A DNA stretch of 64,000 bases from Thermoplasmata archaeon (lineage in GTDB: Archaea; Thermoplasmatota; Thermoplasmata; GCA-020350865): positions 5,081,187 to 5,145,186 of the forward strand of contig CP070751.1 in NCBI GenBank assembly GCA_020348445.1, written 5' to 3'. The position numbers were made by a program, and so were the translations under genes. The notes under the pieces were generated by a model that was not told the DNA's origin, ran no database searches, and was given only the letters and a program-made list of their open reading frames with translations. Of this stretch, positions 3,857-41,751 are shown in pieces. Position 1 is the stretch's first letter; the number at the start of each line of letters is the position of its first letter.

Positions 3857-3857
3857 A

Positions 3858-10043: not shown

Positions 10044-13000
10044 TCACACCTTACTAGGGGTATCTTGAGGCTCCATTTCCATCATAAATCTTGGTAATAT
10101 CTCGGCGACCTCGTAATCCTTGCCTTTCTCCATTTTTCCTTCGACATCCTTTGCTTTTTCAGGCGAAATAAGAGAGATATTTATCCTTCCTCCTTCCTCT
10201 GAATATTTCTTGTCTATTATGGCCAATCCATGTTGTAGGCCCTCCACAAGAACGCAGCTTGTCACTGTCCCAATTTCCTTTTCCTCCAAATTGTATACAG
10301 GGTAGCCTGGTCTTATTGCACGGATGCCCCGAGATTCCATCCTGTACCTTACAATTGATCTATTCCACCCAAGGAACCTTGAAAACTGTCCTTCCCTGCC
10401 TATGAAAAAAGGCTTGTGAAACTTCACAAAGGAGCCGTACCCTGCTTCAATGGGGTCTATGTCATGATCCCCGGCAAGCTCATGACCGTACAACGGAAAT
10501 CCTGCCTCAGTTCTTGTTGAATCCCTTGCTCCGAGACCACAGGGCTTGATTCCAAAAGGCTCGCCTTTTTCCAAAAGAAGATTCCAAATATTCGGGGCAT
10601 CGTCTGGATGAAGATAAAGCTCAAATCCGATCTCTTCACCCGTGTAACCAGTTCTTGAAATCATAACATCAATTCCTTGTAGCTTTGCAAAAATAAATTC
10701 CAATTTTTTTAGCCTGGCCAATTCTAAGCCCGTGGAATCATCAGCACATTCTTGAAGGATTTTTAGGGAATTGGGACCCTGGAGGCTGAGGTCGATTTTT
10801 CTATCGGGTCCACAGGATTCGTCCTTTAAATCACGAATAGTTAAAGAACCCTCGATCTCTATCTCTGGATTGTTATTATCAATCATATATTGTTTTGTAG
10901 CTACAGCCTCAAGCCAGGCCTTGATCTTGTCCATGTTCACAGCATTTACCACCATCATGTATTTCTCATAATCCAGACGATAGATAAAGACATCATCAAG
11001 GACATTACCCCCAGGATCAAGAATATATGAATAATGGGACTGTCCAGGTCTTAGCCAGGGAACGTAGTTAGTCGTCACAAAATCCAAAAACCGAGTGGCG
11101 TGCTCCCCCGAAAATTCCAAAATACCCATATGGGAGACATCGAACAATCCAGCTGTTTCCCTGACTGCCTCATGCTCATCACTTGTCTTGGTGTACCAAA
11201 GCGGCATTTCCCAGCCAGCGAAGGACGCCATCTTCTTTGTAAGTTTTATATGTTCATCATTTAGGCAACTTTTTTTAAGGGATTTTTCTTCAGGAACATA
11301 ATCGTATTTCTTTTTAATGGAGTCTTTCTTTTGTATTCCTTTTACTATCTGTTTTTGGCCAACAAAGTACGACTTGTTCAAATCAAAGAATGATTCATGG
11401 TTCTGATAAAGGGTAATCCCATCTGATTTCTGCATTTCATCAAGATTTGGCAGCCCTGATTCTTTTTGTATTCTTTGCCTAGCATTTAATCCAGCGGCTT
11501 TGATTCCCAAAGCCTTCCCAGTAAGTAATATTTTATCCCAGATTTTTTGTACACTGGATGGGGAAATAAACATATCATATCCTAAAAAGTCTCCATGAGA
11601 CTCGCATGAGACTAATATATCGACATCATCTATCTTTCCCTTTGAAAAGTATGAAGGTTCAAGAGACCCCACCTCAGGAACCAACTTAGTCATTATCTCT
11701 TTAGCCATCGGGCCTATCAGAGCCAAGGCAGTCATTTGATTCTTATCTTCCACCTCCTTCAAGTCCCTAACCACGCAGGGACCCTCCACCTTCATAAAAA
11801 CGTCATCATCAAAAAGGACGTAACCATCTGAAAGAGCGCGTAACCAGGTTTTGATCCTCTCACAACTTGCTGAGCTTGTTACAAGAATGCACCTGCTTCT
11901 TTCCTTTCTATCATGCTCCATCCTGAGAATATGAACATCACCCATGGGCTTAGAATCCTTATACAGGAAGAAACCCCAGGCTCCCATGCCAGGTGGAAGG
12001 CTGCCTACATCCTTTGTTACAGTCTGCTGCAAAAAGGGCATCACCCGATCTGTATCTCCAGATATCTCGAGAATCCCCAGATCCCACATGTCAAATAAAG
12101 CAGCACCCTCCTTTGCTGCCAAAAATTCAGATTCAGAATCTCCATAATGTATGGGAACAACAGGACCACTTGTATCCTCAAACTTCCCATTTAACAACTC
12201 ATGTTGAGCTTTCAGAGGAGTATCCTTGGCTTTCATCTCATCAATTGAGTAATAATGGGGATACCCACTTGACAAACTCACCTTATCCCTGGCAAGGCTC
12301 TTTTCCAGCTCTGCAACCTCGGCTTTAATCTCTTCCATTAGATCGAAATCGATTTTTCCACGGCCAGTTTCTCTCACACCGCCAAGATAATAAAATGGAT
12401 GTATGTTGGTTAAAACCTTGTGAACCAGATATGCTATCTTCTCCATCTCCTTTTTACCCATACCTCTTTGGGTTGCCCATGTGGTTCCAAGTCTTATTGC
12501 AGAGGGATGCACAGGATTTTCATCACCTACAATGGCGTTCTTGTTGCACGTAAGACCGCACAGATCAAGTATCCTGGATACGGCCTCACCACTCATCTGA
12601 TAACCTGTCTTAGATTTTATGCCCTTTAGGTCAATTAAAACCATATGAGTATTTGTGCCCCCGTAGGCAAGTTTAAGACCCAGGGCTTCAAGGGACTTGC
12701 CAAGATGCTCTGCATTCTTAACTATTTGTTTGGATAGCTCCTTGAACTCTTGCGTCTGCGCTATCTTGAAACAAACGGCCTTAGCAGCTATATTGCAGAT
12801 GTGTGGCCCCCCCTGCTCACCTGGAAACACGGCAGTTTCAATTAACCTTGCCTTTTCCTCGTCAGTTGTTATAATCACAGCACCTCTTGGACCGCACATG
12901 GTCTTGTGGGTTGTAAATGCCGCAATGTCGGCGATTCCCACGGGATTGGAAACAACGCATGCAGAAACCAAGCCTGCAGTATGTGCAATATCAGCATGCA

Positions 13001-13817
13001 GTATGCAACCTCCTTCAACTGAATCTGCAATGTCCCTCATTTTTTTCCAGTCAATATCCCAGGGATATGCACTGTATCCTGCTATAATCATCTTGGGTTG
13101 ATGCTCCTTGGCAAGTATTTTAATTGCCTCATAATCAAGCCTTCCAGTGGACAAGTTTACAGTGTAGGGGATGATATTGTAGAACTTGCCCGAACGGTTG
13201 GCTTCGCTTCCATGCGTGAGATGACCACCAGAATCCAGAGCCATACCCATTACCGTGTCTCCAGGCTCCAAGAAAGCCTCGTACACAGCGTTGTTTGCAG
13301 CTGCACCAGACAGGGGCTGGACGTTGACAAAAATCCTCTCTACAGAAACCTCCTTTGATACAAAGAGCTCTGCACAGCGTTTCTGAGCCAGGGCTTCAAT
13401 AAAATTAACATAATCAACGCCTTTGTAGTACCTCCTGTCAGCGTATCTTCTCTGAAATGTAAGCTGCCTGTCAAAATCCAGAAGCTCGTCTCTTTCGTCG
13501 CGGATGTACCTCATATGTGGATAACCCTCAGCATAAAGGTTGGTAAAAACAGAGGCCAGAGCTTCCTTAACAGGCGCAGGGCATATACTCTCAGATGCTA
13601 TGAGCATTATCTTTCTGGCTTGCCTTTCCTCTTCTAGGTTGATCAGGTAGTCGGTCTCGGGATCCACTGTTGACAGCTCATCTTCAAAGAAGAAATTAGA
13701 AGGCGCTTTTGAATTGGTCATCACAACACCCCAATTATGCAAAATCTCAGGTGATTTTGCATTCGCCACCATACCAAATTCCAGGTACAAATAGTTTTTT
13801 ACAAAGACCTTGAGCAT
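10044..13817 (-). CDS. glyA-gcvT: Fusion of serine hydroxymethyltransferase (GlyA), a degenerate GcvT-like domain and a complete glycine-cleavage T protein
   Basis: SHMT motifs LIASE, YAEGYP, NVQPLSG, GGHLTHG, DIAH, TTHKT (PLP Lys), FPGEQGGP, IRLGT. GcvT motifs FAGWEMPLWY, GLFDVSHMG, SRTGYTGE, CGLGARDSTRTEAG. The true start may be a downstream Met. Confidence 0.92.
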   Translation of the reverse strand: MLKVFVKNYLYLEFGMVANAKSPEILHNWGVVMTNSKAPSNFFFEDELSTVDPETDYLINLEEERQARKIMLIASESICPAPVKEALASVFTNLYAEGYPHMRYIRDERDELLDFDRQLTFQRRYADRRYYKGVDYVNFIEALAQKRCAELFVSKEVSVERIFVNVQPLSGAAANNAVYEAFLEPGDTVMGMALDSGGHLTHGSEANRSGKFYNIIPYTVNLSTGRLDYEAIKILAKEHQPKMIIAGYSAYPWDIDWKKMRDIADSVEGGCILHADIAHTAGLVSACVVSNPVGIADIAAFTTHKTMCGPRGAVIITTDEEKARLIETAVFPGEQGGPHICNIAAKAVCFKIAQTQEFKELSKQIVKNAEHLGKSLEALGLKLAYGGTNTHMVLIDLKGIKSKTGYQMSGEAVSRILDLCGLTCNKNAIVGDENPVHPSAIRLGTTWATQRGMGKKEMEKIAYLVHKVLTNIHPFYYLGGVRETGRGKIDFDLMEEIKAEVAELEKSLARDKVSLSSGYPHYYSIDEMKAKDTPLKAQHELLNGKFEDTSGPVVPIHYGDSESEFLAAKEGAALFDMWDLGILEISGDTDRVMPFLQQTVTKDVGSLPPGMGAWGFFLYKDSKPMGDVHILRMEHDRKERSRCILVTSSASCERIKTWLRALSDGYVLFDDDVFMKVEGPCVVRDLKEVEDKNQMTALALIGPMAKEIMTKLVPEVGSLEPSYFSKGKIDDVDILVSCESHGDFLGYDMFISPSSVQKIWDKILLTGKALGIKAAGLNARQRIQKESGLPNLDEMQKSDGITLYQNHESFFDLNKSYFVGQKQIVKGIQKKDSIKKKYDYVPEEKSLKKSCLNDEHIKLTKKMASFAGWEMPLWYTKTSDEHEAVRETAGLFDVSHMGILEFSGEHATRFLDFVTTNYVPWLRPGQSHYSYILDPGGNVLDDVFIYRLDYEKYMMVVNAVNMDKIKAWLEAVATKQYMIDNNNPEIEIEGSLTIRDLKDESCGPDRKIDLSLQGPNSLKILQECADDSTGLELARLKKLEFIFAKLQGIDVMISRTGYTGEEIGFELYLHPDDAPNIWNLLLEKGEPFGIKPCGLGARDSTRTEAGFPLYGHELAGDHDIDPIEAGYGSFVKFHKPFFIGREGQFSRFLGWNRSIVRYRMESRGIRAIRPGYPVYNLEEKEIGTVTSCVLVEGLQHGLAIIDKKYSEEGGRINISLISPEKAKDVEGKMEKGKDYEVAEILPRFMMEMEPQDTPSKV

Positions 13818-18846: not shown

Positions 18847-18959
18847 GCAGGTGTAGTCTAGTCTGGTTTAGGACGTTGGCCTTCCATGATCTTCTCCTTC
18901 TCAATTTACGGGGATATCAAAGAAAGCCAACAACTCGGGTTCGAATCCCGGCACCTGCA
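18847..18959 (+). tRNA. tRNA-Gly: tRNA-Gly(TCC) with a 38-nt intron at canonical position 37/38 (18887-18924)
   Basis: Acceptor stem GCAGGTG/CACCTGC plus discriminator A. Anticodon stem TTGGC/GCCAA with loop CT-TCC-A|intron|A. T-arm GGGTTCGAATCCC. CCA is not encoded. Confidence 0.93.
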
Positions 18960-19556: not shown

Positions 19557-22500
19557 ATGCCTGAAAAGAAAATGTTCAGGGAGATGTACGAGAGATGGAA
19601 AGAACTCGACCTACCTGAAGAACAAAAAGATGTTTTGGATAAAATAGAACACGATATCGAGGATTTAGACCAGGAAGATACAATAAAGGAGATTACAGAA
19701 AGTTTACGAACCGATTTAAACGACTCAGATTTATGGTTTAAACTGGGAGCAACTTTACTTGCATCAAAGAAATACGATTTTGCACTGGCGGCACTGGATA
19801 TCACAGTAAAGGTGGAACCAGAAAAGTCATATGTATATGGGGTAAAAGGTTTTGTTCTCACGAAGTTAGGCAGGTACGAGGAAGCAGTGGAAGCCCTTGA
19901 GAAAACTGTTGAGCAAACAGGTCCTATAGAAGGTTACGAGGGTATCGATGATCTTATAAAGGGTATCGAATCAGGAGATGTGAAGATCAAGGCCCTCACT
20001 GCCCCCGGAGTTGAGGAAATACCCTATGATGAATTATTAGAAATCGAAAGAGGATTGGAGAAACTCCTTATTGAGGAGGAAGAGGCTCCATCCAGTTTGG
20101 AACTGCAGGACGAACTTGAGGCACTCTCGGAAGAAATTGAGCAGATTTTAGCAGAGCCCGAGGGTGGAGAAGAGATGTATAAATGTCCAAGCTGTGGTAC
20201 CGAGATAGATTCAAAAGATGAGGTTTGCCCAACATGTGGCATTGAATTCGTTGAAATGGAGGAAGTGCCTGAGGAATTAAAGGGTGAGGAGGTAATCGAA
20301 AAGTTCGAATGCCCCGACTGCGGGGCAATCTTAGATTACGAAATCCAAAAATGCCCTGACTGTGGCCTTGTCTTTGTTGAGGAGGAAGGTGAATTATTTG
20401 CATGTCCCTCATGCGGGGAGGAAGTGGATTCTTCAGCCAGTATTTGCTCCAGTTGCGGAGCTGAGTTTCTGTCTGAGGAGGAGGAACTGGAGGCCGCTTT
20501 GGACGAGATTTTGGCTGTTGAAAGCCTGGAAAGAGAAAAAACCGAGGAAGCGAAAGCCAAATTAGAGGCCCAATACGGTCTCACCAATGGTTTGACCAAT
20601 GGTTTAACCAACGGCATCACCAATGGACTTAAAAAAGCCAAACGGGGCCTGACCAACGGTATTACAAATGGTCTTACCAACGGTTTAACCAATGGACTTC
20701 GGGCTTTAAAAGTGGGTATAACCAATGGTTTGACCAATGGCAACGGTATTACCAACGGCCTAGGTCCAAAACGCCCCGTAATCGACCCGAAACGTAGTAA
20801 ACTAAAACTTATCGGAATTCCTGTTATATTATTTATTCTGATATTTACCCCATATATCCTCGTGAATATAATGAAACCCGAGGAAAAAATAGATATCGAT
20901 GGCAGTTTTGGAGATTGGAAGAATGTACAAACAACTTCAGATGAAATCGAAGCTGCAGAATTCAATCCCAACGTTGACATAATCGACTATCGGGTGGATG
21001 ATAGCCAGATGGAACTTTCGTTCTATTTAGAGGTTGCAGGTTTCATGTTGGCTGGTGAGCCCAATGAGCCTGATGGCAGACAACTTGTGGATACGGCATA
21101 CATTTTCGTGGATACAGATCAGGATCCCGACTCAGGCTATTTGATAAAGGGCATTGGTGCAGATTATATGTTGGAGATTTATGGTTGGAATGAAACCATC
21201 TTTGGTAATTTTCTTTACAATTACCCTGAAGTGGAGCAGGACTGGAATCATTGGGAAACTGTTGAATACGTATCAGCAGCAGTAAGTGGCTCGATGTTGG
21301 AGGCACAGGTAAACCACGAATCAATTCACCTTAGTAACCATGAACCCTTGGATATTCTGTTTTATATGCAGGGATGGAACGGATCTGAAGATTTTTCAGA
21401 CACCATAATATCCAATGAAGATGGTGTTTTAGCTGTAACTCAACAAGGTGAGGGTGAAGGTAAGATCAGTGGTGACGGCAATAAACTGCTTAGGTTGGAA
21501 ATCAAGGCTATAAACAACGATATAACCATCAATGAGATCAAGGCCGAAAGAACAGGCTCTGGAACAGATGACGACGTCTCTGAGATAAGGCTTGAGGATG
21601 AGAACCGCAAATCATTTGGATTGGGCACTTTAAGGGAGGGCATTTTAACATTTCAACCGGCATTGACCCTTACGCAAGAGCAAACCGCAACCACTGTCTA
21701 CATTGTAGTAGATATCAGTGAAAGTGCACAGGAAGGGGACAGCATTGGATTTAAAATAATGAAAAACCATGATATAATAACTGATTCAGGAACAGTGTCT
21801 TTAAAACAAATGGCCCCCGAAGATGAGAACCCCGAGGATGAGAAATACGAAACCAGCTATCTGGTGGACATACCTGACGACGTTATAATAGACGGTGCAT
21901 TTGCAGATTGGGACACAAAATTCGTTCGTAACGACACAAGCGGTGATGTAAGCCGCGTTGAATTGGATATACTTAAATACGGTGTTTCCACCACCGATTC
22001 CCAAGCAGCGTTCTTTTTAAAAGTGGATAAAAGTATGTGCTCTGGAACGGCTGTTCCCTATCGGAATACTGCATCTGCAAAAATATTCGTGCCGTCGGAG
22101 CAAGTGGATTCAGATGGAGATGGAATATTAGATTTAAATGATAACCATGATGTGAACATCGAGTTTTTATTTAGCCTGAACCTGAATTTCAGACAGTATC
22201 TAAAGGAGGGGGCACCAGATGATCTTCTAATAGAGGCATTTGAAAATAACTCACAACCATTGACTTCTAATGCTGGATTGATTAAAATATTGGACAGATA
22301 CTGGAAGGTCGAAGATGGCGATGCGATATATATCATCATAGATTACGGGATAGAGCTAAAGATATATGATTCCGATGGTGTGCTGGAGGATACCAGGTTT
22401 GACTTCGATAATGATGGTATACCTGATGAAGAGGATACCGATGATGACGACGATGGTATAGAGGATTTCGATGTCGGAGGTACGGATGTTCTTCTTAAAC

Positions 22501-24989
22501 AGATTGTAACAGGTGCAACAAAATACATAGGCCCTCCTGAACCTCCAATACCTATTTATCCAAAAACAGGAGAGGATTTGGTTTACATTTTCATAGATAC
22601 GAATCCTGGGATAGGTTATAGGGAAGGCCTTCCAATTGCCGCTGATTATATGATAGAGGTGAAGGGGAGGTACAATATCGTGCAAAGCAGCGTAATCTAC
22701 AAATGGTCTGGAGCTTCTCCTTTTGATTGGAATTGGACTGAGCACCGCTCTCCAGAGGTGGAACTGGACATGCTGCGGATGGAGGTGGGCATAACCTGGG
22801 ATGACATAGAATTAAATCCCGCAGATGATCACTTCGATGTATACTTTTTAACGACAGATTGGAGAAAGAAAGATAGAGATTATTCAAATACAGAGGGTGT
22901 GATTACAGGACCCACAAGAGCCTACATCGGAGATGGTAAAAGCAGAGGTTATGACGTGAAATATCACGGCAGCTACGATGTGTACTTCGATGAGAATGAA
23001 GGTGAGGTGCTCTTTGAGACAAAGAAAGGTTACTTTTTGTCCTGGAACGTGCCTTCTGAGCTGAAGATCACCTCTTTGGATGAAGTTGTTTATACTTTTG
23101 ATGAACCTGAAAACTCGGGCTTTGAAATCAGCGAGTCTCATGCTGATTACTATTACTCCTTTGATGATCTTGCTGTCACAACTCACTACATGTTTGGGGG
23201 GAGTATGTTAAAAGAGGATATCATCCTCGCCGAGAACCCCATAGAGGATATCATGGATTCTGGTTTTCTTTTGGTCACGACGCCTTTGAGCTACTCTCCA
23301 GAATTAGCAATGTACGTGGATAATTATCCACAGAAGGACGGTTTTGTGACAACAAGTGATATTGAATTCCGCAACACCTTCTATTCTGAAAACGTCTACA
23401 CGTTGATGAGCCCTGTTGCTTACGATGCAAATGGAGACGATGTAAAATGCGAATATGTGGTGGATTTCATAGATCCTGAGGATTCAACAGCTACACTTAC
23501 CTTACGGTGCTCTATGGACTGGCTTGCCACGGCAGAATATCCTGTTAGAATAGATCCCACGATATTGAAAAATGATCAATATGAAGGCGGCGGGGATGAC
23601 AGCGAATATTTGGGTTATTCCCTTGCAGTTGGGGATTTTAATGACGATGGCAACGAGTATGATATCGTAACTGGTGCACCGTACTGGGATCATACCTCAA
23701 CTAGTTGGGGTGCCGCATACATTTTCTATGGTCCTGTAATGACCAACGATTTCACACCAGATGCAATTATCAATCTCACTGAGGAACCTGATAGAAGTAA
23801 TAATGATCAACTAGGAAGATGTGTCGCAGCAGCAGATTTTGACAACGACGGCGTGCGTGATGATGTGGTGCTCACCACCTCAGGGGATGAGGCGTATGTG
23901 GTTTACGGAGAAGGTGGCATCTCAGGCGCTGTCACAACTGCAGATGTGATCATTTATCCACCTGGGGCCGGGGCGCCTGGGTTTGGAAGGTACGGCCTTG
24001 CTGTGGGTAATTTCGATGGAAACGACGGAGATGATGTGGCAATTGGCGCCAACTCCAACAACAGCCTATACATATATTTCAACTCAACAGATTGGGACGA
24101 TGGACTGGTGTACGATCCCAGTGTCACGATTGGATACACTACAGGTAATTTGGGAGTATCTATAGCCAGAGGTAATCTCAGAAACAACGGTGCGACGGAT
24201 TATGATGATATAGCCGTAGGTGCTTATGGTTACCTCGTTGGTAGTACCAGTGCAGCCGGAGCCGTTTTCGTGTTTTACGGGGACGGTACCTACGGTGATG
24301 GAGCACAATTAGCCGGTGCAGATGTTATAATAGAATCCGGTGCAAATTACCCGACAGAAAATGGCGAATCAGAGAGATTTGGATGGAGTATCGCAATCGG
24401 TGATTTCAATAAATCTGCCACAACAAATGACTTTGATGATCTCCTTATAGGTGCACCGTACTACAACTCCGAGGAGGGAAAAGCTTATATCTACTTTACA
24501 GAGGATGATTCCGATGGAGGCTTCGGCTCAGCCACTGGGGAAGATGACGATTTGATTTTACATGAGATTGGTGCAAATAGGTTCGGTTATTCTGTTGCGA
24601 TAGGTAACTTCTGGGGTGATGGCTACCTTGATGCTTTTGTGGGAGCATACAGAACCAGTTCATCTGATGGTATCGCATATGCATACGACTTCGATGGAGC
24701 AAACTTGGATAATACCAGCGATTGGAGTTTAAGTGGAACAATCGGTGAGGGATTAGGATTGGCTGTTTTCGCGGCAGATGTAAACGGAAGCGGTTACGAT
24801 AATTTCATCATGGGCTGCCCATATTTCGATGATCCCGATGATTCTCCAGCTAACGACAATGCAGGTAGAGTGAAGGTGGACGAGTACATCCCGGAGTTCT
24901 CCGATATCGCGGTCCCAATAGCATCGACAATAACATTCATAATATTCTGTTCTAGAAAAAGGAAAAGAAATCCAAAGAATGATAAATAA
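19557..24989 (+). CDS. Large membrane protein: TPR, three double Zn ribbons, GLTN repeats, TM, extracellular beta domains, 7 FG-GAP (integrin-alpha-like) repeats, PEF-CTERM
   Basis: TPR-like DLWFKLGATLLASKKYDFA. Three CPxCG...CxxCG pairs. TM LIGIPVILFILIFTPYILV. DxDGDG calcium motifs. FG-GAP repeats such as FGWSIAIGDFN...DDLLIGAPYY...GKAYIYF. C-terminus IPEF-hydrophobic-RKRKR. Confidence 0.88.
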   Translation: MPEKKMFREMYERWKELDLPEEQKDVLDKIEHDIEDLDQEDTIKEITESLRTDLNDSDLWFKLGATLLASKKYDFALAALDITVKVEPEKSYVYGVKGFVLTKLGRYEEAVEALEKTVEQTGPIEGYEGIDDLIKGIESGDVKIKALTAPGVEEIPYDELLEIERGLEKLLIEEEEAPSSLELQDELEALSEEIEQILAEPEGGEEMYKCPSCGTEIDSKDEVCPTCGIEFVEMEEVPEELKGEEVIEKFECPDCGAILDYEIQKCPDCGLVFVEEEGELFACPSCGEEVDSSASICSSCGAEFLSEEEELEAALDEILAVESLEREKTEEAKAKLEAQYGLTNGLTNGLTNGITNGLKKAKRGLTNGITNGLTNGLTNGLRALKVGITNGLTNGNGITNGLGPKRPVIDPKRSKLKLIGIPVILFILIFTPYILVNIMKPEEKIDIDGSFGDWKNVQTTSDEIEAAEFNPNVDIIDYRVDDSQMELSFYLEVAGFMLAGEPNEPDGRQLVDTAYIFVDTDQDPDSGYLIKGIGADYMLEIYGWNETIFGNFLYNYPEVEQDWNHWETVEYVSAAVSGSMLEAQVNHESIHLSNHEPLDILFYMQGWNGSEDFSDTIISNEDGVLAVTQQGEGEGKISGDGNKLLRLEIKAINNDITINEIKAERTGSGTDDDVSEIRLEDENRKSFGLGTLREGILTFQPALTLTQEQTATTVYIVVDISESAQEGDSIGFKIMKNHDIITDSGTVSLKQMAPEDENPEDEKYETSYLVDIPDDVIIDGAFADWDTKFVRNDTSGDVSRVELDILKYGVSTTDSQAAFFLKVDKSMCSGTAVPYRNTASAKIFVPSEQVDSDGDGILDLNDNHDVNIEFLFSLNLNFRQYLKEGAPDDLLIEAFENNSQPLTSNAGLIKILDRYWKVEDGDAIYIIIDYGIELKIYDSDGVLEDTRFDFDNDGIPDEEDTDDDDDGIEDFDVGGTDVLLKQIVTGATKYIGPPEPPIPIYPKTGEDLVYIFIDTNPGIGYREGLPIAADYMIEVKGRYNIVQSSVIYKWSGASPFDWNWTEHRSPEVELDMLRMEVGITWDDIELNPADDHFDVYFLTTDWRKKDRDYSNTEGVITGPTRAYIGDGKSRGYDVKYHGSYDVYFDENEGEVLFETKKGYFLSWNVPSELKITSLDEVVYTFDEPENSGFEISESHADYYYSFDDLAVTTHYMFGGSMLKEDIILAENPIEDIMDSGFLLVTTPLSYSPELAMYVDNYPQKDGFVTTSDIEFRNTFYSENVYTLMSPVAYDANGDDVKCEYVVDFIDPEDSTATLTLRCSMDWLATAEYPVRIDPTILKNDQYEGGGDDSEYLGYSLAVGDFNDDGNEYDIVTGAPYWDHTSTSWGAAYIFYGPVMTNDFTPDAIINLTEEPDRSNNDQLGRCVAAADFDNDGVRDDVVLTTSGDEAYVVYGEGGISGAVTTADVIIYPPGAGAPGFGRYGLAVGNFDGNDGDDVAIGANSNNSLYIYFNSTDWDDGLVYDPSVTIGYTTGNLGVSIARGNLRNNGATDYDDIAVGAYGYLVGSTSAAGAVFVFYGDGTYGDGAQLAGADVIIESGANYPTENGESERFGWSIAIGDFNKSATTNDFDDLLIGAPYYNSEEGKAYIYFTEDDSDGGFGSATGEDDDLILHEIGANRFGYSVAIGNFWGDGYLDAFVGAYRTSSSDGIAYAYDFDGANLDNTSDWSLSGTIGEGLGLAVFAADVNGSGYDNFIMGCPYFDDPDDSPANDNAGRVKVDEYIPEFSDIAVPIASTITFIIFCSRKRKRNPKNDK
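20577..20785 (+). repeat. Coding tetrapeptide repeat G[LI]TN x11 in three blocks
   Basis: GLTNGLTNGLTNGITNG / GLTNGITNGLTNGLTNG / GITNGLTNGNGITNG. Codons are synonymously diverged, so the repeat appears conserved at the protein level. Confidence 0.92.
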
Positions 24990-24991
24990 AC

Positions 24992-27900
24992 TCAGCTGTC
25001 CACTCTCAAGGCCAATTTTTTCTTGGCCGAGGATTTTTTCTTAAAAAGTGTGCCGCACATGGGGCATTTTCCAATTCTCTCTCCGCAAGCCTCATGATAT
25101 GTGTTGCCGCAATTGCATTCTATTACCATGAATCCTGGTTTTATCTTGCCGTTGCAGGCATAGCATTTATAGCCTTTTTCCGCCTTGATTTTCTTGTATG
25201 GTGGTGCTTTTTCCGGCGATTTTCCCAGGGTGACTTCATGGGATAATTGAGCTTCACATACTTTGCCATCGAAGATTCTGGAAAATGTGGTGTTTAAATA
25301 GAAATTCAGATCGCCGGAGGCGACGGCCTTTATTTTTAGAGGAATCTCCAATTTATCCCTTGCTTTTAGAATTTTTATACCTTCAAGGCCCTGTATTTCG
25401 AAGTCCTCCCCCTTCTTGATAAATTGCACATCCTTTGCAACCGATTTGCCAGTGTTGGAAAGTACCAAAGTAATCTCATACCATTTATCCTTCTCCTCAA
25501 CATCACTTAAATCGATCTCAAGCGAGACATTCGGGCTGAAAGGTTCCAATTCGGTTTCCAAGGCTGTCTCTGCCTTTTTGAGGATCTCAAGGGCCAAATC
25601 GGGCTTGTTTTCGCTGAGCTCCTGTGCTTCCCTTAGTAATTTCTCAGCCGATTTCGTGTTCATTCCGCTTTTACTGATACGCATAAGTTTCCCTGCCAAC
25701 TCAGAAATCAAATCCTCCACATCTTTGTCGGGTTTTGGTATCTGTTTCTCTTCTTCCTCCAACTCCTTTTTCTTCTCCTCGATCTCTTCGGATAGGGGAG
25801 GCGCGGGAGGTTCCTCGGCGGCTATCTCAGAGGGTTCTTCCAATACCTCCTCGACAGCTGTCTCTTTGACCTTTGGAGCTCCTGGCTCTATTGTCTCCAT
25901 CTGGTCCATCAATTTTCGTATGTATTTAGCAGCATCGAGATATTCCTTGCTTTCAAGGTGGGATTCCCCGCTCTTTAATATCGCCATCACTTCGGTTAGG
26001 TCCATTCCCTTTTTCTTGGCCTTCGTCAATCTTGCCTTTGCGGAGGAAAGTTTTTCAAACAGGTTTTTAGTAATCTCTCTCTCAATGAGCCTCTTGCAGT
26101 TTTCCGTGAATACCGCCACCTGAGCGTATGACTCCTCCTCCAAGGCGGCCTTTGCCTCGTCTAACATGTTGTTGGCTCTCGTAACATTCACACCCAATTC
26201 CGAGGCGGTTTTTATAAGCTGCTCGCAATTCTCAATGGGTATTGAAAGATGTCCTACATAGGATCGCTTCGCCTCCCTGATGGTTTCTTTTGCGAACTTC
26301 ATAGAAGTTGTGAATTTCTTTTCCTCAAACGCCTTTTTGGCAACACCATAGAGCTCCCTAGCCTTTTTCACATCAACACCGACATCGTCACTCTCGTTCA
26401 CCCTTGCTAAAGCTGCATGAAGGGTCGTGGAGGCTCGTTCGTACTCCTCTGTGGTTTCCGAAAGCACTATTCCGCTTTCCAATGCAAACTCAAGGGCCTT
26501 CACATATTCAAGGTTCTTTAGGGCGGTGGCTGCCTTTATCAACAGCTTCCTCACATTGTCCGCTCCAATGCCCTTTTTCTCAGCCTCCTTCAATTTTGCA
26601 GCGGTAACGGCGATGATTTCAGCTGCCATCTTCTTTTGAAGATCTACCTTCTCAACCTCGCTTTCGCTCTGCATGGCGAGCCTCAATGCCTCATTGTAAT
26701 CTTCATCGGCAAGTGCGATTCTTGCCTCCTCCAGTAATTTCTCAGCTTTGGAAACATCCATTCCTTCGGATTTGGACTTGTTAATAATGGACTGAAACGA
26801 TGATATTGCCTCAGAAACCTTCAGCTCTTTAGCCTTTTTTGCCAGCCTTATGCATTTTTTACCCAATTCTATGGAAGCGAGATACTCGTTGTTCTTTAAC
26901 TCAGAAAATGCCTTTTCGAGCAATTTCCTTGCCTCGCTTACATCGGCCTTTAAACTCTCTGCCTCTTGGATATAATTACCTGCTAGATTGATGATATTCG
27001 CAGTTCTTTGGCTCTCGTCCCTGATCTCTTCGATCTCACCCAGGCTATGGGATGCGTATTTTGCCGCCTTTTCGTACCTATGCAGCTCCAAGGCCTCCTC
27101 GGCCTTTTGGTAAAGGACCTCTACAGTTAGAACATCCAGACCGATTTTCTTAGCCTCTATTATCATGGAGTATGCGTTTGATAACATATCTGAAATCTTT
27201 ACATTGCAAAGCTCCTCGGCCCTCTCGGCGGTTTTTTGAGCGGAGTTAAGGGCATTTTCGAATTGCTCGTTGTTCATATATATGACCGTCTTTTTGAGTT
27301 GGAGTTCTGCATCTGAAGTATCCATTTCAAGGTTTTTTGCGATTTCAATGCATTCCTTGCCAAATTCCATTTTTTCGTTAATGGAATGCACCAAGGTGAG
27401 CTGGGTTACCTCGTTTGTACACTCCTCTACCAGGTCAGAGACAGCTTTAAAACTACCTGCGGAAAGAGATTTTTCTGCCTCCACTAATTTCTTCATTGGG
27501 GACGACATATCTATGTCGTGTTTCGTAGCCTCCTCTATCTTGGATTTCAATGCAATTATCGTTGCTGTTAGCTCTTCATGTTCTCCAATAAATGAGAGTG
27601 TTTCCTCTTTACTCTTGGTCATGATATAATATGCTTCCCGGAAATTCCTCCTCGCTATAGCCTCATTTGCCCCTCTTAGCCTTTCATTCATCTCAGAAAC
27701 ATCCATTCCATATTCTTTTGCCCTGTTGATGTTTTCCAATATGCTCGAGGCTAAATCGGTAACTATGGTTTTCTGTTGGTCAATTACCATCTCTAAGATA
27801 TTATTGGATTGGGTCAAAGCTTCAGAGAATTTTTTTTCCTCGTATAGTGATTTCGCCTTACTCAGCATTTCTTCGACTTGTGGAATGTCACCTTTCATGT

Positions 27901-29713
27901 CTCTTAAAGACGCCATTGTGACTTCGGCCTTTTCAATTGAAGACTTTACATATTCATTGACAGCCTTCTTACATTCAATAACAAATCCATAGGCTTCATC
28001 GTAATTATCCTGATCCAACACTGCGCCAGCATTTGCTAGTAAATTCATACAATTGGTCTTTCCCTCTCCTTCTTCGAGAGAATTAACCACATATGTAAGA
28101 TCCACTATCTCCTTGGTGACACCTTTTTTTAATGCATCTCCTGCTTCTTCTTTGATTTTGTTGGCGAGTTCAATTGCCTTGTTGTAATCCTCAGCTTTTA
28201 GGGCAACATTTGCCTGATTCAGGTATTCCCTCACGTGCTTTACATTAGAATCCGTCTTTTCGCCCAATGATACTATTTCCTCAGATTTCTTGATTATATC
28301 AAATGTATGATCGTACATTCCCTGCTCTATTTTTTCCCTGCATTGGGATATGAGATTCATGGCTTTTTTATAGTCCTTGGAATCGAATGCTCCCTTTGCC
28401 TCCTTCATAAGATCTGTGATCCGTATGGTGTCCACTCCTATCTTCGCGGCTCTCGATATGGCCTGTGTTATGAGTTGCAGCTCTTCCTTCGCACCTTCAT
28501 AATTACTGATCAATTTATTTATTGTAGCTTCACCTTTTCTTGCATATTCCATTGCTTCGACGAATTTCTTCTCTTTTAAGGAACTTCTTGCCATGTCCAA
28601 ATATTTCACGGATTCCGAAAGGTTCGCGCCAATGTTTTTGGCGGTGATGAACTTCGGTCTGGAGAGAGAAATCGTTTTCAATACACATTGAAATTGAGCG
28701 TTCTCCACCTCTTCATATATCTGATTGGAATAATCATAAACTTCGTCAAAATTCTTCGATTTGAATGCATCCTTTGCTTTATTGAACAGAAGTTGGGCCT
28801 TTGTAACCTCAGCATTTATGGCCTTTCCCTCCCTGATGGTCTCTTCACACTGTCTTATGATCTTCGTGCTCGCCCTTCCCACGAGTTTATCTGCTTCACT
28901 TTGGCTCTTGTTAATCAGATTTATTGCCTGTTCAAAATCCTGGGAATCCAAGGCAGTTTGAGCGTTATCATAAAGCTCTTGGGCCTTCTTAACGTCCGCT
29001 TCCATTCTCCTTGCCAGTTCTATGGTTACCATGGCATTTTCTATGAGCTTTGATATTTCATCCTCTGCAAGCTTACCGGCCTGCTGCATTCCCTCGCTAA
29101 TGAATCTCCAGGCATGTTCATAATCGCTTTTATCTGTGTACTCCCTGGCTTTATTAAGATGTGTTTCCACCTCTGATGCGTCTTGTCCGATTTTCTTGAC
29201 CATGACGATAAGGGATTGAGCTTTTGTAAATGTTTTTGAAACCTGTTCATTAAGGAGTTTATCAACAACCTCCCATCCTTTTTCCGCATGTCCCAGAGCC
29301 TCTTCGTATTTTCCTTCTGTAACGGCTTCATTTGATTTTGCCAGTGGTTCATCCAGGTTTGGAGCTTCCACACCCATCTCCCTTGCCAATTTGATGAGGT
29401 TCTTTGTGGAATCAATTACCATTAAAACATGTTCTTTAAGGGCGTTTTCTGCTATTGACTTGCTCTCCTGAGCAAGTTCGGATGCTGACTTGAATTCCTT
29501 TTGCGCCAAAGCGCTGGTCGCTTCTGTTAGTTTTGCCTCGGCCTTAGCGACGTTGGCATCCATGTTTTTTGCGGCCTTAATCAGTTCCTCAGCCACTGCT
29601 ATCTCTTTTTCGGCCAACTTGCGGAACTTCGTGGCCTCTTGCGCTTTCTTCTCAAGTTGTTTTGTCAGTTGAAGCGCTTTTAGATAGTTGGATGCCAATA
29701 TTCGCGCCCCCAT
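24992..29713 (-). CDS. Giant alpha-helical repeat protein with C-terminal CARDB/Ig-like domain and C4HC3 RING/PHD-like zinc finger
   Basis: Recurrent GxDVxxAxxxLxxAxxA...YxxA helical units over ~1270 aa, a Pro/Glu linker, an Ig-like segment (ITLVLSNTGKSVAKDV) and terminal CYAC...CNC...HEAC...CPMC. Confidence 0.85.
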   Translation of the reverse strand: MGARILASNYLKALQLTKQLEKKAQEATKFRKLAEKEIAVAEELIKAAKNMDANVAKAEAKLTEATSALAQKEFKSASELAQESKSIAENALKEHVLMVIDSTKNLIKLAREMGVEAPNLDEPLAKSNEAVTEGKYEEALGHAEKGWEVVDKLLNEQVSKTFTKAQSLIVMVKKIGQDASEVETHLNKAREYTDKSDYEHAWRFISEGMQQAGKLAEDEISKLIENAMVTIELARRMEADVKKAQELYDNAQTALDSQDFEQAINLINKSQSEADKLVGRASTKIIRQCEETIREGKAINAEVTKAQLLFNKAKDAFKSKNFDEVYDYSNQIYEEVENAQFQCVLKTISLSRPKFITAKNIGANLSESVKYLDMARSSLKEKKFVEAMEYARKGEATINKLISNYEGAKEELQLITQAISRAAKIGVDTIRITDLMKEAKGAFDSKDYKKAMNLISQCREKIEQGMYDHTFDIIKKSEEIVSLGEKTDSNVKHVREYLNQANVALKAEDYNKAIELANKIKEEAGDALKKGVTKEIVDLTYVVNSLEEGEGKTNCMNLLANAGAVLDQDNYDEAYGFVIECKKAVNEYVKSSIEKAEVTMASLRDMKGDIPQVEEMLSKAKSLYEEKKFSEALTQSNNILEMVIDQQKTIVTDLASSILENINRAKEYGMDVSEMNERLRGANEAIARRNFREAYYIMTKSKEETLSFIGEHEELTATIIALKSKIEEATKHDIDMSSPMKKLVEAEKSLSAGSFKAVSDLVEECTNEVTQLTLVHSINEKMEFGKECIEIAKNLEMDTSDAELQLKKTVIYMNNEQFENALNSAQKTAERAEELCNVKISDMLSNAYSMIIEAKKIGLDVLTVEVLYQKAEEALELHRYEKAAKYASHSLGEIEEIRDESQRTANIINLAGNYIQEAESLKADVSEARKLLEKAFSELKNNEYLASIELGKKCIRLAKKAKELKVSEAISSFQSIINKSKSEGMDVSKAEKLLEEARIALADEDYNEALRLAMQSESEVEKVDLQKKMAAEIIAVTAAKLKEAEKKGIGADNVRKLLIKAATALKNLEYVKALEFALESGIVLSETTEEYERASTTLHAALARVNESDDVGVDVKKARELYGVAKKAFEEKKFTTSMKFAKETIREAKRSYVGHLSIPIENCEQLIKTASELGVNVTRANNMLDEAKAALEEESYAQVAVFTENCKRLIEREITKNLFEKLSSAKARLTKAKKKGMDLTEVMAILKSGESHLESKEYLDAAKYIRKLMDQMETIEPGAPKVKETAVEEVLEEPSEIAAEEPPAPPLSEEIEEKKKELEEEEKQIPKPDKDVEDLISELAGKLMRISKSGMNTKSAEKLLREAQELSENKPDLALEILKKAETALETELEPFSPNVSLEIDLSDVEEKDKWYEITLVLSNTGKSVAKDVQFIKKGEDFEIQGLEGIKILKARDKLEIPLKIKAVASGDLNFYLNTTFSRIFDGKVCEAQLSHEVTLGKSPEKAPPYKKIKAEKGYKCYACNGKIKPGFMVIECNCGNTYHEACGERIGKCPMCGTLFKKKSSAKKKLALRVDS

Positions 29714-38355: not shown

Positions 38356-38405
38356 ATTACCTATTCTCCCCATTACTACGATACTAATAGATATGTTTCT
38401 ATTAG

Positions 38406-38431
38406 ATATAAACCTATCTTTTGGATGGCCA
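38406..38431 (-). promoter_or_regulatory. Conserved promoter motif (CCAA..GATAG + TTTATAT) of the surface-protein paralog family
   Basis: Minus strand reads tggccatccaaaagataggtttatat. Similar motifs at 41615-41639 and 46673-46691. Confidence 0.5.
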
Positions 38432-38546
38432 AGAATTGTAATTTCTAATTATTTGGGGATTAAAATATCCATTAACTAATCATCTCATCGCCCAGAATTT
38501 ACAAATTTAGCCCTCATCACAGCGATTAAGTCTACGGATCCTATTC

Positions 38547-41669: not shown

Positions 41670-41751
41670 TAGATATCAAGTAAATAAATAATATCTCGTA
41701 CAGGTTCTCCGAAGTCCAAAGGATGCATAGAATAAATCTAAGTTTCAGCTT

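What the first reader, a model, noticed from the sequence alone, without database searches (positions are those of the whole stretch)
19557..24989. Receptor-like protein joining cytoplasmic TPR/Zn ribbons to an integrin-alpha-like propeller, anchored at both ends
Seen: no N-terminal signal peptide. It has TPRs, acidic linkers and three double Zn ribbons (~20180-20470), GLTN repeats, one TM (~20805-20870), ~1350 aa of extracellular-type domains (two IDGxFxDW starts, DxDxDG Ca motifs, a YPVRIDPT-ending beta domain), seven FG-GAP blades (~23600-24880), and IPEF-TM-RKRKR. Established: PEF-CTERM is an archaeosortase sorting signal normally paired with an N-terminal signal peptide. Inference: a type II membrane protein tethered twice, whose sortase processing or ligand binding could signal to the cytoplasmic TPR/Zn module. 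This would be an integrin-analogous adhesion receptor in a non-Asgard archaeon.
Basis: partly seen in the sequence, partly recalled or inferred. Interest (0 to 1): 0.75.

Follow-up and report, generated by a model that had tools for sequence, protein, structure and literature searches.

The report
Double-anchored archaeal surface protein, cytoplasmic head
This is a real 1,810-residue membrane protein of an uncultured Thermoplasmata archaeon with zinc-binding and TPR modules inside the cell and sugar-binding-like domains plus an integrin-type propeller outside; it is one ordinary member of a large, unnamed archaeal family that may couple the cell surface to the cytoplasm, and it is not an integrin relative.

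Summary
Window 19557-24989(+) is one intact 1,810-aa ORF.

- **Inside:** no signal peptide, about 2-3 TPRs, three zinc ribbons and G[LI]TN repeats.
- **Membrane:** one N-in helix at aa 412-442.
- **Outside:** a three-domain "pedestal" (CBM9/DOMON-like, beta-sandwich, CBM9/DOMON-like), a beta domain and a seven-bladed FG-GAP propeller.
- **Tail:** IPEF, a helix and RKRKR.

It is not a fusion artefact.
- The genome holds 19 paralogs with the same plan.
- Of 63 relatives with complete 5' ends in other Thermoplasmata genomes, 59 keep a head of more than 100 aa plus a helix before the pedestal.
- Same-genus orthologs start with the same MPEKKMF N-terminus.
- Their head is as conserved as the ectodomain.

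The PEF tail scores just under the TIGR03024 cut-off (21.3 against 23 bits). IPE is nearly invariant in relatives, and an ArtC-like sortase co-occurs with the family (53 of 56 sortase-bearing genomes).

The archaeon is not Asgard: no actin or Snf7 was found.

"Integrin-like" applies only to the propeller fold. Topology, legs and partner subunit differ. Signalling across the membrane is plausible, because paralog heads swap KaiC, wHTH, SAP and HhH modules, but it is untested.

This scan has already found the same family, in this genome and in others.

The parts
19557..24989 (+). Whole gene, 1810 aa, with stop codon
   Evidence: Orthologs in three other genomes start with the same MPEKKMF...RWKELDLPEEQ N-terminus.
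19689..19931 (+). Cytoplasmic TPR region (aa ~45-125, about 2-3 repeats)
   Evidence: Pfam TPR_1, TPR_2, TPR_9 and TPR_16 hit aa 49-121, each just under its cut-off. NCBIfam MamA-like scores 33 bits. Identity to orthologs is 58-65%.
20172..20468 (+). Three zinc ribbons (six CxxC knuckles, aa 206-304) separated by acidic linkers
   Evidence: Zn_ribbon_3 59.6 bits, DZR 39 bits, Zn_Ribbon_1 35 bits, all above cut-off. Identity to orthologs is 63-68%.
20577..20765 (+). Juxtamembrane cytoplasmic G[LI]TN(G) repeats (aa 341-403)
   Evidence: The strict G[LIV]TNG pattern matches 6 times before the pedestal. NG-rich repeats precede the helix in nearly all relatives. This is the most conserved segment, at 78-82% identity to orthologs.
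20790..20882 (+). Signal-anchor transmembrane helix (aa 412-442), N-terminus inside
   Evidence: Kyte-Doolittle peak 2.66, with +5 charge before and -3 after. A helix sits directly before the pedestal in all 18 paralogs whose 5' part is present (the nineteenth ORF starts inside the pedestal) and in 59 of 63 complete relatives.
20883..21425 (+). Pedestal domain 1, CBM9/DOMON-like beta-sandwich (aa 443-623), starts with IDGSFGDW
   Evidence: pLDDT about 90. VIA-align matches: Z 11.4 to 4jpq_B, 11.3 to 2ivf_C, 11.2 to 1i82_A (CBM9), with rmsd 3.4-4.0 over 153-169 residues.
21429..21869 (+). Pedestal domain 2, beta-sandwich (aa 625-771)
   Evidence: pLDDT about 90. Z 10.9 and 10.5 to the N-terminal carbohydrate-binding modules of sialidases 6mnj and 8gn6. 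Cohesin-like matches give Z about 7.
21888..22919 (+). Pedestal domain 3, second CBM9/DOMON-like domain (aa 778-840 plus 995-1121), starts with IDGAFADW and is split by an insertion
   Evidence: Z 10.9 to the C-terminal domain of glucodextranase 1ulv. It is conserved in all paralogs as query 441-840 plus 995-1120.
22077..22538 (+). Lineage-specific insertion (aa 841-994) with three DxDxDG calcium-type motifs
   Evidence: pLDDT below 50. The full-length insertion was found only in three paralogs of this genome (100, 71 and 63% identity). It was not found full length in five related genomes and is absent from orthologs L032, L033 and L035.
22917..23576 (+). Beta-rich domain ending in YPVRIDPT (aa 1121-1340)
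   Evidence: pLDDT about 80 in model 2. The fold is not assigned, because the propeller filled the match list.
23592..24881 (+). Seven-bladed FG-GAP beta-propeller (aa 1346-1775)
   Evidence: Seven repeats by sequence. Pfam FG-GAP is above cut-off. VIA-align gives Z 32-36.7, rmsd 2.5-3.0 over about 360 residues and 19-21% identity to integrin alpha propellers, against Z about 29 for generic propellers. Foldseek E is 3e-13.
24882..24986 (+). PEF-type C-terminal sorting tail: IPEF, hydrophobic helix, RKRKR
   Evidence: TIGR03024 scores 21.3 bits in the six-frame scan against a 23-bit cut-off, and three other PEF-tailed ORFs of the genome, two of them family paralogs, pass it. I, P and E are nearly invariant across 18 aligned relatives. 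The motif follows the last propeller strand by about 5 residues.

Best explanation
The gene encodes a cell-surface protein of a Thermoplasmata archaeon. It belongs to a large, unnamed family with a fixed plan: a variable cytoplasmic head, an Asn-Gly repeat, a signal-anchor helix, a three-domain pedestal (CBM9/DOMON-like, beta-sandwich, CBM9/DOMON-like), a variable passenger and a PEF-type tail.

What the sequence shows: the 411-aa head (TPR, three zinc ribbons, G[LI]TN repeats) stays in the cytoplasm and one helix spans the membrane. About 1,340 aa lie outside, and the C-terminal IPEF-helix-RKRKR returns the chain to the membrane.

What is inferred:
- An ArtC-like archaeosortase cuts at the PEF motif and attaches the new C-terminus to lipid. 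Both ends of the ectodomain are then held at the membrane, and the ectodomain forms an arch with no stalk.
- The lectin-like pedestal and the calcium-type FG-GAP propeller bind glycans or other surface ligands, either the cell's own or foreign ones.
- The conserved head serves as a docking platform for cytoplasmic partners, so that surface state and cytoplasm are coupled. This member carries no enzymatic or DNA-binding output of its own. Any output would have to go through partners bound by the TPR and zinc-ribbon head.
For: Architecture and topology:
- There are only two hydrophobic segments, and charge and domain types are consistent with N-in and C-in.
- N-glycosylation sequons number 11 outside and 1 inside.

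Family:
- The genome holds 19 paralogs with the same plan.
- At 50% identity there are 638 protein clusters at E<=1e-30 and 2,491 at E<=1e-3.
- The family was found in 68 of 121 sampled genomes of the class.
- Of relatives with complete 5' ends, 59 of 63 keep a head of more than 100 aa plus a helix. Of those with complete 3' ends, 39 of 57 have a PEF-type tail.

Folds: CBM9/DOMON-like Z about 11, and integrin-type propeller Z 32-36.7.

Sortase link:
- The genome has an ArtC-like gene (TIGR03762 53.8 bits; exo_archaeo signature 43.9 against 23) and an ArtA gene.
- Across 121 genomes, family and ArtC-like protein occur together in 53. The ArtC-like protein occurs alone in 3, the family alone in 15, and neither in 50.
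- By taxonomic family, the ArtC-like protein is in 17 of 22 that have the surface family and in 0 of 7 that lack it.
- In this genome 15 of 19 PEF-tailed ORFs belong to the family.

The head is functional:
- Identity to orthologs is 58-82% in the head against 48-61% in the pedestal.
- There is one ortholog of the head in each of four same-genus genomes.

Head modules shuffle among paralogs: KaiC ATPase, TPR, SAP, HhH and wHTH. Stand-alone KaiC genes abut several paralogs.
Against: - No experiment exists for any member.
- Processing of PEF-CTERM by ArtC has never been shown biochemically. The tail is below the TIGR03024 cut-off, and the sortase is below the ArtC cut-off of 100 bits.
- This member has no KaiC, no DNA-binding module and no conserved neighbour, so nothing in it names an output.
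- The fold matches at Z about 11 show a shared fold, not sugar binding.
- Fifteen family-bearing genomes showed no ArtC-like gene with this query.
Confidence: 0.55

Rival explanations
1. It is a purely structural envelope protein. The family would form a surface coat or glycocalyx scaffold of cells that lack a rigid wall. The cytoplasmic head would only stabilise, cluster or help insert the protein, with no information flow across the membrane.
For: - The genome has many paralogs with adhesin-like passengers.
- Lectin-like domains sit next to the membrane.
- Both ends of the ectodomain lie at the membrane without a stalk.
- Pedestal-only minimal members of about 590 aa exist (L038 and L051; P0123-P0130).
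- This member has no catalytic or DNA-binding output.
Against: - The head is conserved as strongly as the ectodomain.
- Heads of paralogs carry KaiC ATPase, wHTH, SAP and HhH modules, which a passive anchor would not need.
Confidence: 0.3
2. One reading: an integrin-analogous adhesion receptor, in which ligand binding at the propeller or sortase cleavage is transmitted to the TPR and zinc-ribbon module.
For: - The propeller is closest to integrin alpha propellers.
- The protein spans the membrane and has a conserved cytoplasmic part.
Against: - Topology is opposite to integrin alpha: type II, with the propeller at the C-terminal, membrane-pinned end.
- There are no thigh or calf leg domains. 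The weak Foldseek matches of the pedestal to integrin legs have TM below 0.1.
- No beta-subunit-like partner gene sits next to it.
- From general knowledge, FG-GAP propellers are common in prokaryotic surface proteins. The solved FG-GAP propellers that matched were almost all integrins, so the best match is expected.
Confidence: 0.07
3. The C-terminal IPEF-helix-basic tail is simply a second, permanent transmembrane anchor and is not processed by any sortase.
For: - The tail scores below the TIGR03024 cut-off.
- The candidate sortase scores below the ArtC cut-off.
- Fifteen family-bearing genomes have no detected ArtC-like gene.
Against: - The IPE motif is nearly invariant although it lies outside the helix.
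- Three other PEF-tailed ORFs of the genome, two of them family paralogs, pass the model cut-off.
- The ArtC-like gene is almost never found without the family: 3 of 56 genomes, and 0 of 7 taxonomic families that lack the surface family.
Confidence: 0.15
4. It is an assembly or gene-calling artefact that joins a cytoplasmic protein gene to a secreted protein gene near position 20800.
For: None was found. The idea was raised only because the domain combination is unusual.
Against: - The reading frame is continuous in a single-contig 5.16-Mb genome.
- The same continuous architecture occurs in 18 paralogs and in dozens of independent assemblies.
- Orthologs align from residue 1 across the junction.
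Confidence: 0.01

Closest known systems
PEF-CTERM sorting-domain proteins and archaeosortase C (NCBIfam TIGR03024 and TIGR03762; Haft et al. 2012, as cited in PMC5244752)
   Same: The extreme C-terminus has a PEF motif, a hydrophobic helix and a basic cluster. An ArtC-like exosortase-family gene is in the genome and co-occurs with the family.
   Different: There is no N-terminal signal peptide. Instead a signal-anchor helix follows a 411-aa cytoplasmic head, so the mature protein would be held at both ends. Tail and sortase both score below the curated cut-offs (21.3 against 23 bits; 53.8 against 100 bits), so this is a divergent Thermoplasmata branch.
ArtA/PGF-CTERM lipid-anchored surface proteins of Haloferax volcanii (PMC7157517, PMC6098224)
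   Same: This is the experimentally studied model for cleavage of a C-terminal sorting signal followed by lipid anchoring. This genome also has an ArtA gene (149 bits).
   Different: The signal (PGF), the sortase and the phylum all differ. As far as I know from the literature, those substrates are exported by N-terminal signals and have no cytoplasmic head.
Integrin alpha subunit FG-GAP beta-propeller (for example PDB 7la4_A, 4wjk_A)
   Same: It is a seven-bladed FG-GAP propeller with DxDxDG-type loops. The match is Z 32-36.7, rmsd 2.5-3.0 Å and 19-21% identity.
   Different: Only the propeller matches. The topology is opposite and the legs are not integrin-like. No beta-subunit-like partner gene sits next to it, and no integrin-type cytoplasmic tail is evident. 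It is not an integrin homologue at the protein level.
CBM9 / DOMON-like ligand-binding beta-sandwiches (PDB 1i82, 4jpq, 2ivf_C)
   Same: The fold of pedestal domains 1 and 3 matches, and they share the IDG-x-F-x-D-W type N-terminal strand.
   Different: No sequence model matches. Ligand-binding residues were not examined. Here the domains sit next to the membrane in a fixed three-domain unit.
Membrane-tethered one-component regulators (transmembrane transcription regulators such as ToxR/CadC; PMC10269533)
   Same: The plan is single-pass type II: a cytoplasmic N-terminal effector or interaction module and an external sensing part. One paralog in this genome (L026) has a wHTH head.
   Different: This member has TPR and zinc ribbons rather than a DNA-binding domain, a much larger adhesin-like ectodomain and a second, C-terminal anchor.
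Archaeal KaiC-like ATPase signalling modules (proposal of Makarova, Galperin and Koonin 2017, cited in PMC5847659; the paper itself is not held and was not read)
   Same: The closest paralog and many relatives carry a fused KaiC domain and/or a neighbouring stand-alone KaiC gene.
   Different: This member has neither a fused nor a neighbouring KaiC. Any link would have to act in trans.

Membership tests
PEF-CTERM sorting domain (TIGR03024) | Tripartite extreme C-terminus: PEF motif, hydrophobic helix, basic cluster | tested here: met
   IPEF at aa 1776-1779, a helix at aa 1781-1799, then RKRKR.
PEF-CTERM sorting domain (TIGR03024) | Score at or above the curated cut-off of 23 bits | tested here: not met
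   13.8 bits on the whole protein and 21.3 bits in the six-frame scan. Three other ORFs of the genome, two of them family paralogs, score 23.4-31.2 bits and pass.
PEF-CTERM sorting domain (TIGR03024) | Cognate archaeosortase C encoded in the same genome | tested here: inconclusive
   One ArtC-like gene scores 53.8 bits on TIGR03762 (cut-off 100) and passes the exosortase/archaeosortase signature (43.9 against 23). It co-occurs with the family in 53 of 56 genomes.
PEF-CTERM sorting domain (TIGR03024) | N-terminal signal peptide for export (the usual partner feature) | tested here: not met
   The N-terminus is charged and the first hydrophobic segment is at aa 412. A signal-anchor replaces the signal peptide.
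PEF-CTERM sorting domain (TIGR03024) | Cleavage at the motif and covalent lipid attachment | not testable with these tools
   This needs proteomics or biochemistry.
FG-GAP beta-propeller (Pfam PF01839) | FG-GAP repeats above the gathering score, seven blades closing a propeller | tested here: met
   25.9 bits against 22.1. Seven repeats by sequence. The model has pLDDT about 80, with Z 32-36.7 to integrin alpha propellers.
Integrin alpha subunit | Type I topology: N-terminal propeller, thigh/calf legs, C-terminal helix, short tail, obligate beta subunit | tested here: not met
   The topology is type II with the propeller at the C-terminal end. The region between helix and propeller is CBM9-like, a sandwich and a second CBM9-like domain. 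No beta-subunit-like neighbour is present.
CBM9 / DOMON-like superfamily | Beta-sandwich fold of the CBM9/DOMON type | tested here: met
   Z 11.2-11.4, rmsd 3.4-4.0 over 153-169 residues for aa 441-623. Z 10.9 for the second copy.
CBM9 / DOMON-like superfamily | Sequence-model match and ligand-binding residues | tested here: inconclusive
   No Pfam or NCBIfam hit over aa 441-1340. No relative among PDB sequences. Binding residues were not examined.
Zinc ribbon (Pfam PF13248, PF12773, PF13240) | Paired CxxC knuckles scoring above the gathering score | tested here: met
   59.6, 39 and 35 bits against cut-offs of 27, 27.3 and 25. Six CxxC knuckles lie in aa 209-299.
TPR | TPR repeat models above the gathering score | tested here: inconclusive
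   The best hit is TPR_1 at 25.9 bits against 27.8. Several TPR models overlap aa 49-121. Relatives are annotated with TPR families.
Unnamed Thermoplasmata 'head / NG-repeat / helix / pedestal / passenger / PEF tail' family | NG-rich repeat, a single helix and a three-domain pedestal in that order | tested here: met
   The profile built from 19 paralogs matches this protein at 759.5 bits. The order of parts is shared with paralogs and relatives.

The most novel reading that the evidence does not exclude
The conserved unit of NG-repeat, helix and pedestal is the transmission core of a previously undescribed class of archaeal single-pass receptors. These would take the place of two-component systems in Thermoplasmata: a census counted only 3 histidine kinases and 4 response regulators in 11 Thermoplasmata genomes (PMC5847659). 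Variable passengers would sense surface ligands, and variable heads (KaiC, wHTH, SAP, HhH, TPR/zinc ribbon) would deliver the output. This KaiC-less member would then be an adaptor-type receptor that signals through partners bound to its TPR and zinc-ribbon head.
Probability: 0.3. Interest if true: 0.8.

Novelty: new variant of a known kind. Interest (0 to 1): 0.55.

Why it matters
Thermoplasmata are abundant in sediments, soils and guts. They are almost uncultured and have very few classical signalling systems.

A family of several thousand large proteins joins cytoplasmic interaction, ATPase or DNA-binding modules to lectin-like and adhesin-like surface domains, and it carries a sortase-type tail. 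Such a family is a candidate for how these cells build their surface and sense it. I found no named model for the pedestal (Pfam, NCBIfam, PDB sequences) and no paper that describes it.

This member shows three things:
- The head is kept under selection even without a KaiC domain.
- Double anchoring is the rule for PEF-tailed proteins in this lineage.
- The "integrin-like" label should be limited to the propeller fold.

Tried and rejected
- **Asgard origin.** Rejected. No actin (PF00022) and no Snf7 (PF03357) was found in the single-contig genome. Relatives carry Thermoplasmata or Methanomassiliicoccales labels.
- **Loss of an ancestral KaiC domain by truncation next to the upstream tRNA.** Rejected. 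There is no KaiC remnant upstream, and orthologs in four same-genus genomes share the same KaiC-less N-terminus.
- **Obligate pairing of the KaiC-less and KaiC-bearing sister forms.** Weakened. The KaiC-bearing head was found in three of four same-genus genomes but not in the closed genome G029.
- **Functional link to the convergent 1,573-aa RING-finger neighbour.** Rejected. Its only close paralog (G000 3.36 Mb) is not next to a family member.
- **Conserved operon partners.** None was found, either here or next to a distant TPR/FG-GAP relative.
- **Foldseek on the 900-residue model.** It gave only unspecific tandem beta-sandwich matches with TM below 0.15. VIA-align resolved the domains.
- **ESM Atlas.** No usable hit.
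- **PDB sequence search with the family profile.** No hit.
- **Literature searches.** PEF-CTERM; Thermoplasmata with FG-GAP and zinc ribbon; FG-GAP with archaeosortase. No description of the family was found.
- **Papers not held.** Haft 2012 and Makarova 2017 are not held. They are cited second-hand.
- **Fold of aa 1121-1340 and of the G[LI]TN repeat.** Not determined.
Full report
**1. What is there**

Window 19557-24989(+) is one uninterrupted ORF of 1,810 aa. The N-terminus is highly charged, so there is no signal peptide.

- A 19-residue hydropathy scan finds only two hydrophobic segments, aa 412-442 (peak 2.66) and aa 1778-1799.
- Net charge is +5 in the 18 residues before the first segment and -3 after it.
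- Pfam finds TPR models just under threshold over aa 49-121, and zinc-ribbon models well above threshold over aa 206-304 (Zn_ribbon_3 59.6 bits, DZR 39 bits).
- Pfam FG-GAP scores 25.9 bits against a 22.1 cut-off.
- Nothing in Pfam matches aa 441-1340.
- The six CxxC knuckles make three zinc ribbons, not three double ribbons.
- IDGxFxDW occurs at aa 447 and 778, DxDxDG at aa 851, 949, 962 and 1427, and YPVRIDPT at aa 1328.
- Seven FG-GAP repeats start at aa 1352, 1419, 1476, 1532, 1608, 1676 and about 1733.
- The chain ends in IPEF, a helix and RKRKR.

**2. It is not an artefact, and relatives keep the fusion**

Within this genome (one contig of 5.16 Mb):
- tblastn and phmmer searches find 19 ORFs that share the region aa 441-840 plus 995-1120.
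- In 18 of them a hydrophobic helix sits directly in front of that region. The nineteenth ORF starts inside the pedestal.
- Nearly all have G[LIV]TNG repeats and CxxC pairs on the cytoplasmic side.
- Most end in (I/L)PE(F/Y), a helix and a basic cluster.

In other genomes:
- A scan of species-representative genomes with one peptide pattern gave 361 confirmed relatives, nearly all labelled Thermoplasmata, Methanomassiliicoccales or Methanobacteriota.
- Of 63 fetched relatives with complete 5' ends, 59 have a head longer than 100 aa followed by a helix before the conserved region.
- Of 57 with complete 3' ends, 39 have a PEF-type tail by a crude pattern, and several others carry near variants.
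- A profile search of 1.84 billion representative proteins gives 638 clusters at E<=1e-30 and 2,491 at E<=1e-3.
- The family is in 68 of 121 sampled genomes of the class and in 37 of 62 genera. It is missing from whole taxonomic families.

Orthologs:
- Orthologs in three other assemblies (L032, L033, L035) begin with the same MPEKKMF...RWKELDLPEEQ sequence and align across the junction.
- Each of four same-genus genomes has exactly one full-length match to the head, at 59-64% identity.

**3. Folds**

An AlphaFold2 model of aa 441-1340, built on the paralog alignment, has pLDDT of about 90 for aa 441-840 and aa 1000-1120. VIA-align against 48,161 PDB representatives gives the following:

| Region | Best matches | Z |
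|---|---|---|
| aa 441-623 | CBM9 (1i82_A), a putative carbohydrate-binding protein (4jpq_B), DOMON-like haem subunit of ethylbenzene dehydrogenase (2ivf_C) | 11.2-11.4 (rmsd 3.4-4.0, 153-169 residues) |
| aa 625-771 | N-terminal carbohydrate-binding modules of sialidases (6mnj, 8gn6) | 10.5-10.9 |
| aa 625-771 | Cohesin-like matches | about 7 |
| aa about 763-1121 | C-terminal domain of glucodextranase (1ulv) | 10.9 |

So the family-defining "pedestal" is CBM9/DOMON-like, then a beta-sandwich, then a second CBM9/DOMON-like domain.

In this protein the third domain is split by a 154-aa, low-confidence insertion (aa 841-994) that carries three DxDxDG motifs. The full-length insertion was found only in three paralogs of this genome. 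It is absent from the orthologs.

A second model (aa 1121-1780, mean pLDDT 78.6) shows a seven-bladed propeller at aa 1346-1780.
- It matches integrin alpha propellers at Z 32-36.7, rmsd 2.5-3.0 Å over about 360 residues and 19-21% identity.
- Generic seven-bladed propellers score about Z 29.
- Foldseek agrees, with E of 3e-13.

The IPEF motif follows the last blade by about five residues, and the first pedestal domain starts about five residues after the first helix. Both ends of the ectodomain therefore sit at the membrane without a stalk.

**4. The sorting signal**

TIGR03024 scores 13.8 bits on the whole protein and 21.3 bits in the six-frame genome scan. The cut-off is 23 bits.

- Three other ORFs in the genome, two of them family paralogs, pass the cut-off.
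- In an alignment of 18 relatives with the same C-terminal half, I, P and E of the motif are nearly invariant.
- A pattern search finds 19 ORFs in the genome with a PE[FYW]-helix-basic tail. Fifteen of them belong to this family. In this lineage the PEF-type tail goes mainly with this family, whose members mostly carry an internal signal-anchor rather than a signal peptide.

The genome encodes two exosortase-family proteins:
- a clear ArtA (149 bits);
- an ArtC-like protein (TIGR03762 53.8 bits, below the cut-off of 100; exo_archaeo signature 43.9 against 23).

Co-occurrence of the ArtC-like protein and the family across the same 121 genomes:

| | Genomes |
|---|---|
| Both | 53 |
| ArtC-like only | 3 |
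| Family only | 15 |
| Neither | 50 |

By taxonomic family, the ArtC-like protein is present in 17 of 22 that have the surface family and in 0 of 7 that lack it. These genomes are related to one another, so I offer no formal statistic, but the pattern fits a sortase-substrate pair.

The assignment of ArtC to PEF-CTERM is a published prediction (Haft et al. 2012, as cited in PMC5244752). Lipid anchoring has been shown only for ArtA/PGF-CTERM in Haloferax (PMC7157517).

**5. The cytoplasmic head**

Segment-wise identity of this protein:

| Segment | To orthologs L032, L033, L035 | To closest in-genome paralog (G000 603324-609485) |
|---|---|---|
| TPR region | 58-65% | 32% |
| Zinc ribbons | 63-68% | 36% |
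| G[LI]TN repeat | 78-82% | 66% |
| Pedestal domains | 48-61% | 60-73% |
| Beta domain (aa 1121-1340) | 40-56% where fully aligned | 69% |
| Propeller | 34% (L033, the only complete ortholog) | 69% |

Against orthologs, the head is at least as constrained as the ectodomain.

The closest in-genome paralog is 2,053 aa and 58% identical overall. It has an extra N-terminal KaiC domain and a stand-alone KaiC gene immediately upstream.

Heads of the other paralogs combine zinc ribbons with TPR, KaiC, SAP, HhH or a wHTH domain. More distant relatives show the same two forms, TPR...FG-GAP of about 1,650 aa and KaiC-TPR...FG-GAP of about 2,360 aa.

This member has no KaiC, fused or neighbouring. Its neighbours look unrelated:
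- an ABC transporter operon;
- an intron-bearing tRNA;
- a convergent 1,573-aa helical protein with a RING-like finger.

**6. Reading**

Shown by sequence and comparison:
- The protein is a type II, single-pass membrane protein.
- It has a conserved cytoplasmic head, a lectin-like pedestal and an FG-GAP propeller.
- Its sortase-type tail returns the C-terminus to the membrane.
- It belongs to a very large family that has no name in Pfam or NCBIfam and no sequence relative in the PDB.

Inferred:
- The ArtC-like sortase cuts the tail and lipid-anchors it, which gives a double-tethered arch.
- The pedestal and the propeller bind glycans or other surface ligands.
- The head recruits cytoplasmic partners.

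Free shuffling of heads and passengers around a constant NG-repeat, helix and pedestal core is the pattern seen in signalling proteins. Thermoplasmata have very few two-component systems (PMC5847659). I therefore favour a coupling or receptor-like role over a purely structural one, but only moderately.

The integrin analogy is limited to the propeller fold. Orientation, the domains between membrane and propeller, and the absence of a partner subunit all differ from integrins.

**7. Relation to earlier work of this scan**

The same family was already reported by follow-up agents, in three regions of this genome and in three other Thermoplasmata genomes. I reached the family independently, before reading those notes, and my results agree with them.

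This report adds the following for this member:
- domain-level fold assignments of the pedestal;
- the integrin-type propeller match;
- the KaiC-less orthologous group with a conserved start;
- the head-versus-ectodomain conservation comparison;
- the species-specific calcium-motif insertion;
- a genome-level co-occurrence table with the ArtC-like sortase.

Noticed in passing
window 18847-18959 (+): A 113-nt tRNA, probably intron-bearing, matches Rfam RF00005 at 54.1 bits. ARAGORN does not call it.
   Followed up: partly
window 22077-22538 (+), aa 841-994: A 154-aa insertion with three DxDxDG motifs splits the second CBM9-like domain. The full-length insertion is present only in three paralogs of this genome (100, 71 and 63% identity). 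It is absent from orthologs in other genomes. This suggests a recent insertion spread among paralogs, perhaps by gene conversion.
   Followed up: partly
window 19557-24989 compared with G000:C1:603324-609485: The similarity is mosaic. The head resembles orthologs in other genomes (58-82%) far more than it resembles the in-genome KaiC-bearing paralog (32-36% in the TPR and zinc-ribbon parts). The beta domain and propeller are 69% identical to that paralog. Two heads share one kind of ectodomain.
   Followed up: partly
window 24992-29713 (-): A convergent 1,573-aa, mostly helical protein has a C-terminal RING-like finger (Prok-RING_1, 21.3 bits, sub-threshold). Its stop codon lies 2 nt from this gene's stop. 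One 50%-identical paralog sits at G000 3.36 Mb. No link to the surface family was found.
   Followed up: partly
window 1046-4733 (+): A STAND-type AAA_16/TPR protein (936 aa) is immediately followed by a Ras/Roc-family small GTPase (291 aa; Ras 100 bits). This is in a genome without actin or Snf7, that is, a non-Asgard archaeon.
   Followed up: no
window 32578-46635 (-) and 46826-61648 (-): Three tandem BNR/sialidase-like propeller proteins (1,931, 971 and 1,627 aa) carry fn3, Ig or cadherin-like stalks. They are followed by a 4,940-aa ORF. The window is very rich in giant surface proteins.
   Followed up: no
window 10044-13817 (-): A 1,257-aa fusion joins serine hydroxymethyltransferase (395 bits) to the glycine-cleavage T protein (344 bits, two stretches). 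An HdrA-like gene with a FlpD domain lies downstream at 7667-10021.
   Followed up: no
L038 and L051 (other Thermoplasmata genomes); P0123, P0125, P0127, P0130: Minimal family members of about 570-600 aa have a short head of 48-72 aa, one helix and the pedestal alone, with no passenger and no PEF tail. The pedestal can therefore stand by itself.
   Followed up: no
whole genome G000: The genome is 5.16 Mb in one contig. Four same-genus genomes are 2.3-3.7 Mb, including a closed one of 3.2 Mb. Marker completeness is only about 82% for both closed genomes, which suggests that the marker set fits this lineage poorly.
   Followed up: no
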